From Octopus vulgaris (taxonomy: Eukaryota), in the NCBI GenBank assembly GCA_951406725.2, contig OX597819.1:43586001-43650000 (forward strand): DNA of 64,000 nucleotides, read 5' to 3'. Made by a program: the position numbers. Shown here piece by piece: positions 15,001 to 48,000 of this stretch; position 1 is the stretch's first letter, and the number at the start of each line of letters is the position of its first letter.

Positions 15001-18000
15001 AAATATAGCACCTTTGTAACCCATAAAAAAAAAAGACAATATATTTTAGCTGGTACCCACCTTGGAACACATCCACAAGAAAACAGCAGGAACGAAGTGG
15101 GAGTGGGAAACGTTTCAAAAGAAACCAAGAGCAAAATATCCAAACTATTCTCAGCAGAATGCATGGAAATGCTAATTTTAAACTTAATGGGATTTTAATG
15201 TTCATTCTTTATTAACTAAGCTTCAAATATCACTTGAACTTCGTATCGCAAATACGAGTTAGCCAATCATCAAATTTTAATCCTCCTTTATGCGTAGAAA
15301 TTCAGACATTGCAAAGGACAAAACACTGAATTAGATTTCACATCATAATTAAGGAGTTGCATTTTCACTTATTTAAAATTTTTGAAATTACTATAATTTT
15401 TTTTTTTTTAGTTTTTAATTTCATGTTTTTTTTTTTTGAAAAATTTCTTAATTTCTAAAAAATTTTTTAGTTTTCACCTTTTCGCATCGAAACAATGATA
15501 GACTGGCGGGAATTCAAAATTGAGTGAGAACTACTGATTGAAAATTGTTCAGCTAAATCATTTTGACAATATCCGATAAATTCAAGTATGAAATAATGGA
15601 AAATAGTTCTATTAAGCAGGTGCGACAAAAACATATAAATGCAAAAAAAAAAAAAAAGAAAGAAAAAGAAAAAAAAATACTCATTCTCTACACAAAAATC
15701 CCAAAATAACACAGTGACGAAGAGAAGATTAGAAATATATAAATAACAGAATGAATAAATTTGAAAAAATAAAGAATAAAAGAAAAAAGAAGAAAAAAAT
15801 TACTAATATATAATAATAGAAAATCAGACTTAAATTTCTTCTTTGTCTAACGACGACAATTCTAATTTGGAGAATGTATCTTCTACAAGACATGGTTCTC
15901 CATTAATGACGATTCTAGATGAACCTTTTGTGATAGCAGCTCAATTCAAAATCAAACTAAATAACGCTACATTCAATTCACAGTAGTTTCAAGTAACATT
16001 CATTTCCCTCCCACAGTCTCTCTCTCTCTCTCTCTCTCTCTTTTCTCTTTTCTTTCTAGCGTCCAATGACGTGTTATGTTTTTCCTTTTCCTAGAAACTA
16101 TTGTTTAGTTTGTATACATTCTCTTTATTTATTTATTTATTTATTTATTCATTTATTTATTTATTACTTTTTCTAAAAAAAGAAATATTTCTATCATGGC
16201 GCCTGAACAATTCCCTCAGCACACAACCATAAAGTATTGGTTTCTTTGCATGATTACCAAGTTTCGGATTTATGTGACCATCTAGTGAGTCCCTATTCTC
16301 TATTATTCGTTGGGTCGTCATTAGAGACTTCCCCTCCATAAGCTCATCTAGAACAAGTGGTTTTGGCAATAATTACTCAGGGACACCATCTGCATGAAAA
16401 CCAACTAGTTATGTTTTCCCACCTTACTTCTCTTATCTGTTTTCTGTCTCTTCTGTATATATATACCTGTATATAAATATATATATATATATATATATAT
16501 ATATATATATATATATATATATATATATATATATATATATATATATATATATATATATATATATATATATATATACATATTATATATGTATGCATATATA
16601 TATATATGTGTGTGTGTGTGTGTATACATATATATGCATATATGTATGTATGTATACATATACATACATATATATATATATATATATATATATATATATA
16701 CGCTACATTCAATTCACAGTAGTTTCAAGTAACATTCATTTCCCTCCCACAGTCTCTCTCTCTCTCTCTCTCTCTTTTCTCTTTTCTTTCTAGCGTCCAA
16801 TGACGTGTTATGTTTTTCCTTTTCCTAGAAACTATTGTCAAGCGGAAGGGAACAAACACAAAGATACGCAGACTTACACACATTTATACTATATATATAT
16901 ATATATATATGTAGTATAAATGTGTGTAAGTCTGCGTATCTTTGTGTTTGTTCCCTTCCGCTTGACAAGCATGCTAATTTGCTTTCGCTCCTGTAACTTC
17001 ATGGCTTTGCAATAGAAACCGATAGAATAAGTACCATTCTTAAAAATGGAAGTACTACGGTAGATTTATTCGAATAAACCCTTCAAGACGGTGCTCGGCT
17101 ACAACCAAAATATAATGACTGTAACAAGTGAAAGAATATTTAATATATTTATTATCAAAAATATATTCAAAATAATCTGAGGCGAACGACATAAAAGATG
17201 ACATTAGCTCAATGACTATTTGAAATCATTCTAGCAATAATGAAACATAACTCCGGGTATGTTTCTGTAAATTCTGTTTGACCTCCTCGGAAATAATGCT
17301 TGGTAAAGAAAGAAATTAGATAGTCACGGCTAGAGCACATTTCAGCACAGGTCTGTTAAATCAGTGTTGACCAATGCCTAAAAATCAACAGTAACAACAC
17401 CAGTAATAGCAGCAGCATCAATACCTACAGCAAACAGAAAAAAAACTAGATGCAATCGACTTCCGTGAGTTTCTTATCCTAAAACGGGTAAGCGAAAAAA
17501 AAAGCCTAAATTATGATTGCTAACAGCCAAATCTATCTAAAGGTGATCCCCTTATCTTTAAAAAAGAAAGAAACATTCGATAAATGTATTCCCAGATATA
17601 TTATGCTTGAAAAACTGACAAATAGTTACAGTTAGAACACCTTTATGATAGGTCTGCTCAATTTGAATTAACGTAGATTTAAACGACACGGCCAGTTTTC
17701 AGTTTCACAGTGAGTACGGCAGTCAGTCATACCAACATATTAACCATTTTGTAGTATGTCGTTGGTGTCGTCTAAACCCAGATCAGATCTGTTCAAGATC
17801 CCTCTTCTGGTTTTTTTTTGCCCAACTATTGTGCATTTTAGACAACGTTGTCAAATGTATCTTACAAAAAACCCCAAAAAATAAAACAAACAAACAAACA
17901 AAAAAAACAACAACAAATAAAGAAAAAGCAAAGCATTGATGGTATACAATTGTCCCCAAATCGTATACCTCTGCTCTATTTAACATTATTATTAGTTAGG

Positions 18001-45000: not shown

Positions 45001-48000
45001 TATATATATGTGTGTGTGTGTGTGTGTGTGTATGTATATATGTATATAACAACAAAAAGAAAGTAACTCGAAGAATAAAATTCGTATTTCTTGTATTTCT
45101 TCTTCTCTACCATTTCCCAGAAGAGGCAGCAGAGAAAACCATTAATAGGATTTAATAAATAGAAACATGAACATTTTATATATTTAATTTAAGGAAAGAC
45201 ACGACTCATTTCTGTAAATTGTAAAATGGAGGTCCGTTAGTAAAAGAAGCTATATACCATTATAAATCTCGTTAGATTTAGTGATAACTTTCATTGAGAG
45301 GTCTGACAAGTCGAAAGGTCTCTCTCTCTCTCTCTCTCCCTCTCTCTCTCTCTCTCTCTCACTCCCCCCCTCTCTCTCTCACTGTCTCTTTTTTCTCTTC
45401 TCCGCTCTCTTTTTCATTCTCTCTCTTTCTCTCAAACTTAATTTCATTACTTTGCAGATATTTTAATTTGGGAACAAGGATAATTATAATAATAATAATA
45501 ATTTTTTTTTTTGTGGGGTATATATTTTTATATTTCTTCCACCAACTTTTCCGAAACCTGGTCTTTTAATTGGTTTTATTTTTCTTTTTAACTTCATCCT
45601 TTTACTTGTATCATTCATTGGACTGCGGCCATACTGGGGCACCATGTTGAGGACTTTAGCCGATTAAATTGCCCCCAATATTTATTCATTTAAGGCCCGT
45701 GAGCTGGCAGAATCGTTACAGCCCCGAAAATATTCTTAGTGGCATTTCTTCCGACTTTACGCTCTGCGTTCAAATGCTGGCAGAGCCGACATTGCCTTCC
45801 ATCCTTTCGGATTCAATTAAATAAGTACCAGTCGAGCACTGGGGTTGATGTAATCAACTTGCACTCTCCACAACAATTGCTGGCCTTGTGCCAACGTTTG
45901 AAAACAATATTTATTCATTTACAAATTTTGTGTTCCTGGATATTTTGCCGACTCATTTGCGTAAACGTTATGTTACGGTGTCATAAACAATCCAACACCT
46001 GTTGCCAAGTATACTAAAAAAGTATATTGTTGCTTTGCTTTAGGGTGTGCCTCTATTTCAAATATATGAACTACTGCCGAAGATTCCCAGTGATCTGATC
46101 AACGGAACAGCCTGCTCGAGAAATTAACGCGCAAGTGGCTGAGCACTCCACAGACACTCACATATACAGACGTGTACAATGGACTTCGCAGAGTTTTCGT
46201 CCACTAAATCCACTCGTTAGGTATTGGTCAGCTCGACCCTGCAGTAAAAGACACTTTGCAAATGTACCACGCTGCGAAATTGATCCTAAACCAAGGGGTA
46301 GTGAAGCGGACTAATTAACCACGCAGCCAAACCTACATCTGCTTCTCAAACAAGCCGTCACACCCACACCTTGAATATTTATTTTTATTATTTAACTGGG
46401 GCTTCCAGACTGGTGAGATCGTTGCGGTAGGTATTTATATAGGGCAGCGCCTGTAAGATGAGTCACAGAGAGAGAGAAGGGGGAGGGAGAGAGAGAGAGA
46501 GAGAGAGAGAGAGAGAGAGAGAGAGAGAGAGGGGGGACGACGAGAGAGAGAGAGAGAGAGAGAGAGAAAAAAAAACTTTGTATGGTTACAACTTTGAAAA
46601 ATAGCAACTGAATCTTTCTCAAATTACAGAGTACCCTACTGTGTTTAAATAAGGAAAAGAAACATTACGCAATGATAATCATGCATATACTTAAAAGCCA
46701 ACAAGACGGTCACAGATGGAATGCATTTGATCGTATATGGGTATAATAACCAAATAAACATCAACAACGTGCACAACAATTGCAATAAACTGCAGTTCGG
46801 AGAAGGACTGATATAGTGTGGGGGGATGCTTAATGTAAGGTTTGAGAGTAAACAGAGTAAAGCTTACTTTTTATTTCCTGAATCTGGAGTGCCTTTGACC
46901 TTTGCCCGTCTTCGATATCAAAAGGAATTCATGCAATTAATATTCCTAATAAACTTTTGTAAGTCAATACTTAGAAGAAAGTCATGAGTATGGAGGTTAA
47001 TACAGTAGGTTGAGTTTCAGGAATGGAAGGGCTCAGAGTTTTGTTTTGAGCAGGGCTTATGCGAAGATGAAGAGAATTAGAGTGACGAGTGGAACAAGAA
47101 TATCTAAATGAAAGTGGCATGAGCTCAGTAAGTTTCAAGGTGTAAGCTGTTTTTTCTTTATCTTTTTAATTCTCGAGTCGCAGGGTACATAAGGCTGGTC
47201 ATTCGGTTTCCATGACGTATAAGTAACCAAGATCAAAACATTCCCTTGAACAGAATGCGGTCTGTTGCAGAGCTCAAGGCCAGCAATTGTTGACGGGGTG
47301 CAATCAATTGCTTTGATCCCAGTACTTGATAGGTACTTTATTTTATCGATCCTGACGGGATGAAAAGCAAATACATATAAGCTAAGTTGACTCAAAACCT
47401 AAAAAACTCGCCCGGCCGGGGGACATTTTTAAACACCAGGAAAGAAATATTCAGTCAATGTCCGTATCCAAAAAAGGTTTCCTACAGCTGATTTGGAATT
47501 CCCTATTCGTTGAATAGTCCTACTGCAGTTCCTTCGAATATCACCACGGTTGTAGTCAATGTGAGTGGGATAACCCCGTTTTACCTGCAGCACGCACAAT
47601 TATTTTTTGTTTACAAAACCAGCTAACCGTTATGATTTTTTTCTTTCAGTTGTAGAGAAGTTATGTGCCTTCAGCTATTTAAGACTGACGAATCACCTAA
47701 GGCACGAAACCAATGGTCACTCTATGACCGACCCTAACTTTTAACTTCCTAAAAAGTATATTGCTGCTTTGCTTTAGGGTGTGCCTCTTTTTCAAATATA
47801 TGAGCTGCTGCCGAACGTTCCCAGTGATCTGATCAACGGAACAGTCTGCTCGGGAAATTAACGTGCAAGTGGCTGAGCACTCCACAGACACCTCTACCCT
47901 TAACGTAGTTCTCAAGGAAATTCAGCGTGACACAGAGTGGAACAAGGCTGGCCCTTTGAAATACAGGTATTACTCATTTTTTGCCAGCTAAGTGAACTGT

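What the first reader, a model, noticed from the sequence alone, without database searches (positions are those of the whole stretch)
15964..47891. Three independent local duplications, all about 140-145 bp long
Seen: 15964-16104/16700-16838, 17466-17606/19070-19208 and 47749-47891/46014-46157 are non-tandem direct copies 0.7-1.7 kb apart. Their content is unrelated and their ages differ (about 1, 5 and 10 differences), yet their lengths are nearly the same. None has TIRs, a poly-A tail or a TSD, and two end in microhomology with the recipient site. Inference: a recurrent copy-in process with a preferred tract length close to nucleosome-core or Okazaki-fragment size. With n=3 this could still be chance.
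Basis: partly seen in the sequence, partly recalled or inferred. Interest (0 to 1): 0.7.

Follow-up and report, generated by a model that had tools for sequence, protein, structure and literature searches.

The report
Break-repair copies of nearby DNA
Three stretches of about 140-150 bases were each copied from a site 0.7-1.7 kb away, most likely while a DNA break was patched, a mutation type already described in vertebrates and here seen in what looks like an invertebrate genome.

Summary
All three direct-repeat pairs are real (self-BLAST E 2e-50, 3e-48, 9e-45). In each pair one copy interrupts a recognisable mobile element, which tells donor from acceptor. 16700-16838 and 46017-46157 lie in the internal microsatellite zone of two copies of one SINE family. 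19063-19211 lies at the end of a LINE ORF2.

None has a TSD, TIRs or a poly-A tail. Junctions show 2-9 nt of microhomology, a 6-nt filler and a deletion of about 22 nt. Two acceptors are chimeric, with a second, inverted patch of 56 nt or 15 nt.

[quoted passage not shown] 2009, PMC2671141). There, human donors lie under 5 kb away and the median length is 147 bp.

So a recurrent copy-in process is supported, but it is a known one. A quantised nucleosome- or Okazaki-sized tract is not shown. Pair 2 is 149-153 nt, and two further local pairs are about 173 nt and about 69 nt. Three of five lengths this close has p about 0.11.

Pair 3 is partly a SINE fragment and could instead be a retroposed copy. 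Genome-wide copy number, read support and orthologous empty sites could not be checked.

The parts
15964..16104 (+). P1 donor (141 nt)
   Evidence: Identical to 16700-16838 except for a 2-nt (TC)n indel. It lies in sequence with no other non-simple match in the window.
16456..16699 (.). (TA)n/(TG)n microsatellite abutting the P1 acceptor on its left
   Evidence: TRF row 16456-16700, period 2; sequence.
16700..16838 (+). P1 acceptor (139 nt), inserted in the microsatellite zone of a SINE-B copy
   Evidence: Alignment A2 shows the SINE-B 3' part resuming only after the insert. No SINE-B copy carries this sequence.
16835..16890 (+). Second patch of the P1 acceptor: inverted copy of native SINE-B segment 16913-16968
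   Evidence: Arms are 56 of 56 complementary, with a 22-nt TA loop at 16891-16912. It overlaps the P1 acceptor by TTGT (16835-16838), which is the 4-nt junction microhomology.
16882..17142 (+). Host SINE-B, 3' part (reference positions about 177-446)
17385..17399 (+). S1, donor of the 15-nt inverted patch next to the P2 acceptor
   Evidence: Exact reverse complement of 19210-19224. The 15-mer occurs only at these two places in the window.
17459..17611 (+). P2 donor (153 nt; strict core 17466-17606)
19063..19211 (+). P2 acceptor (149 nt)
   Evidence: Boundaries are sharp on both sides.
19210..19224 (+). Inverted 15-nt patch joined to the P2 acceptor through a TG overlap
19225..19823 (-). LINE ORF2 C-terminal remnant that the P2 acceptor abuts
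   Evidence: tblastn against the window's other LINE tail, E 3e-9. That tail matches 1125-1217-aa RT proteins. Those proteins end about 17 residues after their LQK/IQK motif, and the equivalent point in the remnant falls at 19225.
46017..46157 (+). P3 acceptor (141 nt), replacing the microsatellite zone of a minus-strand SINE-B
   Evidence: Alignment A5. About 22 nt of SINE-B are missing. Up to 9 nt of microhomology lie at 46149-46157.
46010..46015 (+). 6-nt filler (TATACT) between the SINE-B sequence and the P3 acceptor
   Evidence: It resembles the start of the donor (5 of 6). Calling it a templated filler is inference.
45599..46341 (-). Host SINE-B of the P3 acceptor, also split by a SINE-C insertion at 45693-45904
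   Evidence: A 17-nt TSD lies at 45676-45692 / 45905-45921.
47751..47891 (+). P3 donor: 3' part of a full-length minus-strand SINE-A (to about 48112) plus about 26-33 nt beyond its expected 3' end
   Evidence: Alignment A1. SINE-A reference positions 201-346 map to 47825-47969. The reference copy 36955-37341 is delimited by an 11-nt TSD. The outer 33 nt are 32 of 33 identical between the two P3 copies.
56312..56485 (+).
   Evidence: No host element, so donor and acceptor cannot be told apart.
60853..61024 (+). P4 copy b
24910..24978 (+). P5 copy a: an approximately 69-nt local direct pair
24251..24774 (+). P5 copy b (24251-24275 plus 24730-24774), split by a 445-nt TIR element at 24276-24720 with an 8-nt TSD

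Best explanation

Proposed steps:
1. A break arises, for P1 and P3 in the TA/TG-rich internal microsatellite of a SINE.
2. A 3' end anneals by a few bases to a site 0.7-1.7 kb away on the same chromosome.
3. It is extended for about 140-150 nt, is released, and is joined to the other end at a microhomology.
4. The other end may itself have been extended. In P1 it folded back on its own TA tract. In P2 it copied the same donor region in the opposite sense.

Shown:
- the donor and acceptor structure relative to host mobile elements;
- the absence of transposon hallmarks;
- the microhomologies, filler, deletion and chimeric patches.

Inferred:
- the pathway (synthesis-dependent strand annealing, or replicative template switching, which I cannot separate);
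- the break sites;
- the polarity of P2;
- that P3 belongs to the same class.
For: (1) Polarity from host elements.
- The P1 acceptor plus its inverted arm are an insertion relative to four other SINE-B copies (A2).
- The P3 acceptor replaces the same zone of another SINE-B (A5).
- The P2 acceptor plus its 15-nt patch sit where a LINE ORF2 should end. The ORF remnant matches the window's other LINE tail (E 3e-9). Full-length relatives end 17 residues after their LQK/IQK motif, which falls at 19225. By my reading, without 19063-19224 a stop follows after 3 codons, and with it the frame runs on about 30 codons.

(2) Chimeric acceptors.
- P1: direct 139 nt plus an inverted 56 nt (56 of 56), overlapping by TTGT.
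- P2: direct 149 nt plus an inverted 15 nt (15 of 15), overlapping by TG. The 15-mer occurs only at those two places in 64 kb, 60 nt from the donor.

(3) P3 junctions. Up to 9 nt are shared with SINE-B copies at the right junction, about 22 nt of SINE-B are lost, and there is a 6-nt filler.

(4) No TSD, TIR or poly-A tail at any copy. True retroposed SINEs in the same window do show TSDs of 11 and 17 nt.

(5) Every high-identity pair in the window (at least 88%, at least 40 nt) whose copies lie more than 5 kb apart falls at places that assign to the SINE or 184-bp repeat families. I made that assignment by coordinates, not by a separate test. P1, P2, P4 and P5 have exactly two copies each, always under 5 kb apart.

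(6) Match to the published class. There, donors lie under 5 kb away (66% under 3 kb), the median length is 147 bp, microhomology is 2-9 nt, filler is 1-68 nt, 20 acceptors are chimeric, and 0 of 39 proximal cases have poly-A.
Against: - No eukaryotic genome could be searched, so P1, P2, P4 and P5 could still be low-copy mobile elements with many copies elsewhere.
- P3 is largely SINE-A. In SINE orientation its homology ends in a run of 5-6 T, as a Pol III transcript would. SINE-A fragments are dense, with 10 hits in 64 kb. The two P3 copies are only slightly closer to each other (64 of 67) than to a third copy (62 and 64 of 68). An independent, 5'-truncated insertion of the same subfamily is therefore plausible.
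- The same SINE-B zone has also taken a nested full-length SINE-B (10354-11134), so it is a retroposition target too.
- The polarity of P2 rests on a 3-codon argument and on parsimony.
- The P3 deletion of about 22 nt exceeds the 1-15 nt reported for the human set.
- P1 is identical apart from a microsatellite indel and sits between a 245-nt TA tract and a perfect hairpin, a place where assemblies err.
- The link to microsatellites is not statistically significant. A randomly placed pair abuts an array about 50% of the time.
Confidence: 0.65

Rival explanations
1. The copies are fragments of dispersed mobile elements that happen to lie close together: 5'-truncated SINE or LINE retrocopies, or MITEs.
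For: - The right 67 nt of P3 are SINE-A. P3's homology ends in a T run. SINE-A fragments are dense in the window.
- The SINE-B microsatellite zone is also a retroposition target (nested copy at 10354-11134).
- P2's acceptor adjoins a LINE ORF end and could be that LINE's own 3' UTR.
- P2's donor has a weak inverted match on its right flank, 9 of 12 by eye.
Against: - P1 and P2 have no other copy in the window. They have no TSD, tail or TIR.
- If P2's acceptor is LINE 3' UTR, the donor-side copy is an internal UTR piece without the LINE 3' end. Target-primed reverse transcription cannot make that. The inverted 15-mer also lies on the wrong side for twin priming.
- The MITE reading of P2 needs identity to fall from 95% to about 69% together with a 13-nt indel at the supposed TIR.
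- P3a has no TSD, although retroposed SINEs nearby have TSDs of 11 and 17 nt. It also carries about 26-33 nt beyond the SINE-A end defined by a TSD-delimited copy.
Confidence: 0.2
2. One or more pairs are assembly artefacts, such as a haplotype variant or a short contig placed twice near a microsatellite.
For: - P1's copies are identical but for a microsatellite indel, and the acceptor lies between a 245-nt TA tract and a perfect hairpin.
- Under strict scoring all three alignments come out at exactly 141 columns, which equals 2k-1 for k = 71.
Against: - P2 and P3 differ at about 5-6% of sites with sharp ends. That is too divergent for alleles and is not how a de Bruijn bubble looks.
- P1's unique flanks around the (TC)n indel are 53 and 63 nt, not symmetric as a bubble would be (my count).
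- The window has no N.
- The chimeric junctions with microhomology are what repair produces. They are not what mis-joins produce.
Confidence: 0.07
3. One reading: a copy-in process whose tract length is set near 140-150 nt by nucleosome or Okazaki-fragment size.
For: - Lengths are 139-141, 149-153 and 141 nt.
- The median of 824 human proximal repair duplications is 147 bp.
- Three of three lengths within a factor of 1.10 has p about 0.013 under the fitted log-normal.
Against: - Other local pairs measure about 173 and about 69 nt. Secondary patches measure 56 and 15 nt.
- With five pairs, p is about 0.11.
- The human set spans 50-619 bp and had a 50-bp floor that shapes its median.
- The three pairs were picked after the fact because they looked alike.
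Confidence: 0.1

Closest known systems
[quoted passage not shown] Read: abstract, sections 6, 7, 12 and 14, and term finds. Supplements could not be opened.
   Same: - The acceptor is recognised as an insertion inside a mobile element.
- There is a single donor under 5 kb away on the same chromosome.
- Length is about 150 nt (human median 147, mean 162).
- There is no poly-A tail.
- Breakpoints show microhomology of 2-9 nt, filler and small deletions.
- Some acceptors are chimeric, with two donors joined at a microhomology.
   Different: - The published screen covered ten vertebrates only. This window looks invertebrate.
- Two of three acceptors here are chimeric, against 20 of 1,136 in the human set.
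- One second patch here is a fold-back copy of the acceptor's own flank.
- The P3 deletion (about 22 nt) exceeds the reported 1-15 nt.
- Apparent density is far higher: 3 acceptors in about 16 kb of repeats seen at least twice in the window, against 0.62 per Mb of TE DNA in human. That is one window and a different way of finding cases.
'Doublets', short paired local duplications in mammalian genomes (Thomas et al.). Known to me only through its description in Pace et al., section 14. The paper itself was not read.
   Same: Abundant short local duplications, proposed to come from imperfect break repair.
   Different: As summarised, the few earlier surveys of small duplications, including the one that named doublets, looked at identical or near-identical duplicons under 100 bp, without donor and acceptor polarity.
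Replicative template switching and fold-back templated insertions (MMBIR/FoSTeS; yeast fold-back insertions). Seen: search listings and abstracts only, for PMC8421209, PMC11724301 and PMC7954356.
   Same: Serial switches at microhomology give direct and inverted patches side by side, as at the P1 and P2 acceptors. Fold-back synthesis gives inverted duplications at breaks.
   Different: The yeast fold-back insertions are mostly about 5-34 bp according to the abstract. Here the fold-back arm is 56 nt and the direct patches are 140-150 nt. I cannot separate this pathway from strand annealing using sequence alone.

Membership tests
Repair-mediated duplication (Pace et al. 2009) | The acceptor interrupts a mobile element relative to that element's other copies or consensus | tested here: met
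   P1 acceptor and P3 acceptor against SINE-B copies (A2; A5). For P2 it is only inferred, from where a LINE ORF2 should end.
Repair-mediated duplication (Pace et al. 2009) | Exactly one other copy (the donor), on the same chromosome and under 5 kb away | tested here: inconclusive
   Within the 64-kb window this is met for P1 and P2, with spacings of 736 and 1604 bp. P3's donor region has family relatives. Uniqueness across the genome could not be tested, because no eukaryotic genome collection was available.
Repair-mediated duplication (Pace et al. 2009) | No poly-A/T tail of 5 nt or more and no retroposition-type TSD at the acceptor | tested here: inconclusive
   P1 and P2 meet it. P3's copies begin with a run of 5-6 A on the + strand (T in SINE orientation). 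That run is present in the donor too, so it is copied rather than added. No TSD was found.
Repair-mediated duplication (Pace et al. 2009) | Breakpoints with microhomology, filler and/or a small deletion | tested here: met
   P1: TTGT. P2: TG. P3: up to 9 nt of microhomology, a 6-nt filler and a deletion of about 22 nt.
Repair-mediated duplication (Pace et al. 2009) | An orthologous empty site in a related species | not testable with these tools
   No related genome was available.
SINE/LINE retroposition (target-primed reverse transcription) | The copy reaches the element's 3' end or tail and is flanked by a TSD | tested here: not met
   No TSD or tail at any of the six copies. This is inconclusive for P3 only, where the shared end could be a subfamily tail or a Pol III terminator. 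Positive controls in the window have TSDs: SINE-A 36955-37341 (11 nt) and SINE-C 45693-45904 (17 nt).
MITE / DNA transposon | Terminal inverted repeats and a TSD | tested here: not met
   No TIRs at the ends of any copy. Positive control: the TIR element at 24276-24720 with an 8-nt TSD.
Tandem duplication | Copies are head to tail | tested here: not met
   Spacers of about 595, 1450 and 1590 bp of unrelated sequence lie between the copies.

The most novel reading that the evidence does not exclude
Proximal repair duplication is orders of magnitude more frequent in this microsatellite-rich, probably molluscan genome than in vertebrates. Its synthesis tract has a real mode near 140-150 nt, shared with the human median of 147 bp and set by a chromatin-scale unit such as one nucleosome of donor DNA.
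Probability: 0.1. Interest if true: 0.6.

Novelty: new member of a known kind. Interest (0 to 1): 0.3.

Why it matters
The window gives clean examples of break-repair duplication, with donor and acceptor told apart and chimeric junctions visible, outside the vertebrates in which the class was defined.

Three to five events in 64 kb would be a density about two orders of magnitude above the published human figure. If that holds genome-wide, this process would be a sizeable source of small duplications in repeat-rich invertebrate genomes. It would also confound de novo repeat libraries, which would score such pairs as low-copy elements.

The published human median of 147 bp makes it worth asking.

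Tried and rejected
1. Microsatellite adjacency as a signature. TRF arrays cover 17% of the window (84 arrays), and a randomly placed pair abuts one about 50% of the time. Dropped as statistical evidence. I keep only the structural point that two acceptors occupy the same zone of SINE-B.

2. De Bruijn bubble artefact (141 = 2 x 71 - 1). Rejected for P2 and P3 because of their divergence, and for P1 because its flanks are asymmetric.

3. P2 as a MITE. The supposed right TIR is 9 of 12 after a 13-nt indel. Rejected.

4. P2 as a twin-primed LINE copy. The inverted 15-mer lies 3' of the copy, not 5'. Rejected.

5. TSD search for the SINE-A that contains the P3 donor. No direct repeat of 7 nt or more was found, so its 3' end was placed by comparison with copy 36955-37341 only.

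6. Naming the organism. Two protein searches gave only unnamed best hits (1 hit; 75 hits). Named hits were corals, a shrimp and a tunicate at 48-59% identity. Pfam gave only sub-threshold RT zinc-finger and DDE matches. Rfam and ARAGORN found nothing. My impression that the SINEs are octopus-like is recall only.

7. Supplementary Table S1 of Pace et al., wanted for the real length histogram. I used a log-normal fitted to the published mean and median instead, which is only a rough stand-in.

8. Genome-wide copy number. Not attempted.

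
Full report
**The window.** It is 64 kb with no N. GC is about 27-46% in 2-kb windows. It is dense in simple repeats: TRF gives 120 rows, and 84 merged arrays of period 6 or less cover 17%. It carries several SINE-like families, LINE tails, a mariner-type remnant and TIR elements. Rfam and ARAGORN found nothing. The tools did not name the organism. My impression that it is cephalopod-like is recall only. It does not look human.

A self-comparison finds the three pairs at E 2e-50, 3e-48 and 9e-45.
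- P1 is 15964-16104 against 16700-16838. The copies are identical apart from a 2-nt indel in a (TC)n run.
The alignment runs to 17459-17611 / 19063-19211, that is 153 and 149 nt, with about 8 substitutions and one 2-nt indel.
- P3 is 46017-46157 against 47751-47891, 132 of 141 identical with no gaps.

All three are direct, with spacings of 736, 1604 and 1734 bp. The flanks become unalignable at once on both sides. I found no TSD, TIR or poly-A.

**P1 in detail.** The sequence to the right of the acceptor (16882-17142) is the 3' part of a diverged copy of a SINE I call SINE-B. This is shown by alignment with four other copies in the window (A2). SINE-B has an internal TA/TG microsatellite. In this copy the zone reads, from left to right:
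- a 245-nt TA/TG tract (16456-16699);
- the P1 acceptor (16700-16838);
- a 56-nt segment (16835-16890);
- a 22-nt TA loop;
- the native SINE-B sequence (16913-16968).

The 56-nt segment is the perfect reverse complement of that native sequence, 56 of 56. So the acceptor is chimeric. It holds 139 nt copied directly from a site 736 bp upstream, plus 56 nt copied in inverted sense from the acceptor's own right flank. The two patches overlap by TTGT. Both templates carry TTGT at that point.

The simplest reading is a break in the TA tract. The left end was extended on the upstream donor. The right end folded back on its TA repeat and copied itself. The two new 3' ends then annealed at TTGT/ACAA. 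A replicative version with three template switches gives the same product. This mechanism is inference.

**P2 in detail.** Directly after the acceptor, overlapping it by TG, lies a 15-mer (19210-19224). It is the exact reverse complement of 17385-17399, which lies 60 nt left of the donor. That 15-mer occurs only at these two places in the window. It resembles CAA-type simple repeats, with 9 matches at 2 mismatches or fewer against 0.32 expected. Its position, at the junction and next to the donor, still makes chance unlikely.

To the right of the patch lies a minus-strand LINE ORF2 remnant. It matches the window's other LINE tail by tblastn at E 3e-9. That tail matches RT proteins of 1125-1217 aa.

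Two such proteins end 17 residues after their LQK/IQK motif. In the remnant the same count ends at 19225. By my reading, if 19063-19224 is taken out a stop follows after three codons. With it, the frame runs on for about 30 codons.

I therefore read P2b plus the 15-mer as a chimeric insertion at the end of the LINE ORF. This is inference, and I put the polarity at about 70%. If P2b is instead the LINE's own 3' UTR, the copy at 17459-17611 is an internal UTR piece without the LINE's 3' end. Retroposition cannot make that, so the pair would still be a DNA-level patch.

**P3 in detail.** The donor lies in a full-length minus-strand copy of another SINE, SINE-A, which runs to about 48112 (A1). The acceptor sits inside a minus-strand SINE-B, at the same microsatellite zone as in P1 (A5). 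The SINE-B 5' part is at 46158-46341 and its 3' part resumes at 46009.
- About 22 nt of SINE-B are missing.
- Six bases (TATACT) fill the left junction.
- The right junction falls in a run of up to 9 nt that SINE-A shares with SINE-B copies.

A SINE-A copy at 36955-37341 is delimited by an 11-nt TSD. Measured against it, P3's homology runs about 26-33 nt beyond the SINE-A 3' end. Those outer 33 nt are 32 of 33 identical between the two copies. That favours copying of DNA together with its flank.

Several points go the other way.
- In SINE orientation the shared end is a run of 5-6 T, as at a Pol III terminator.
- SINE-A fragments are dense, with 10 hits in the window.
- The two copies are only slightly closer to each other (64 of 67) than to a third copy (62 and 64 of 68).
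- The same SINE-B zone has also taken a nested full-length SINE-B at 10354-11134.

I put P3 at roughly 55% repair copy and 40% independent truncated SINE.

**Other local pairs.** The window has a fourth pair, 56312-56485 / 60853-61024 (174/172 nt, about 92%, 4.5 kb apart). It has a fifth of about 69 nt, 24910-24978 against 24251-24275 plus 24730-24774. The second copy of that pair is split by a 445-nt TIR element with an 8-nt TSD. Neither pair can be polarised.

Every high-identity pair whose copies lie more than 5 kb apart falls at places that searches give to the multi-copy families. That is my assignment by coordinates. The two-copy pairs are always local.

**Comparison with what is known.** Pace et al. 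2009 (PMC2671141) found such events by the same logic, as inserts inside mobile elements whose only other copy lies nearby. They report 824 human proximal cases.
- Donors lie under 5 kb away, 66% under 3 kb, with a peak near 1.2 kb.
- Mean length is 162 bp, median 147 bp, maximum 619 bp, with a floor of 50 bp.
- Breakpoints show microhomology of 2-9 nt, deletions of 1-15 nt and filler of 1-68 nt.
- Twenty acceptors are chimeric.
- None of 39 inspected proximal cases has poly-A.

They screened ten vertebrates. The text mentions neither invertebrates nor nucleosomes. The phrase "repair-mediated duplication" occurs in 9 papers of the library, and none is about invertebrates judging by title. The pairs here fit the class on every feature I could test. 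Genome-wide uniqueness and orthologous empty sites could not be tested.

**The length question.** I fitted a log-normal to the published mean and median. Under it, three of three lengths within a factor of 1.10 has p about 0.013, three of four about 0.047, and three of five about 0.11. The three pairs were chosen after the fact because they looked alike. The secondary patches are 56 and 15 nt. The lengths are therefore typical of the class, and they are not evidence of a quantum. The real human histogram is in a supplement that I could not open.

**Density.** Three acceptors lie in about 16 kb of sequence that recurs within the window. That is far above the 0.62 per Mb of TE DNA reported for human. 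It is one window, and the cases were found in a different way.

**Verdict.** The copy-in reading is right in kind but describes a known repair scar. The nucleosome or Okazaki length idea is unproven. One of the three pairs may be a retroposed SINE fragment.

Noticed in passing
10354-11134: A full-length SINE-B (10510-10920) is nested in the microsatellite zone of another SINE-B. The outer copy's 5' part is 10354-10502 and its 3' part is 10923-11134. TRF reports this as a 153-nt 'tandem repeat'.
   Followed up: partly
45676-45692 and 45905-45921: A perfect 17-nt target-site duplication flanks a SINE-C copy (45693-45904) inserted in the 3' part of the SINE-B that also hosts the P3 acceptor.
   Followed up: partly
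24276-24720: A 445-nt element with terminal inverted repeats of about 27 nt and an 8-nt TSD (TCGAGTAC). It splits one copy of an approximately 69-nt local duplication.
   Followed up: partly
The first copy follows (CTA)n(AAT)n. The second is followed by (AAT)n after about 55 nt.
   Followed up: partly
13693-13959 and 48793-49181: Two related fold-back elements with long inverted arms. The second has an expanded (AT)n centre. They look like a palindromic MITE family.
   Followed up: no
3365-3490: A 126-nt hairpin (arms about 50 nt, 88% complementary, loop about 24 nt) directly after the 3' end of the SINE-B at 2945-3359.
   Followed up: no
39809-40362: Three tandem units of 184 nt (87-96% identical), related to the dispersed SINE-C family.
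   Followed up: no
57285-58007, 58335-59210, 59464-60540, 28758-29099: Mobile-element coding remnants. There are two diverged LINE tails, one matching RT proteins of 1125-1217 aa. There is a 240-aa ORF with a single 158-aa relative in the protein database. There is also a mariner/DDE-type remnant, below the Pfam threshold.
   Followed up: partly
13768-13891 and 14695-14823: Inverted arms of about 125 nt (69% identical) bracket about 800 bp. This is possibly an old DNA transposon.
   Followed up: no
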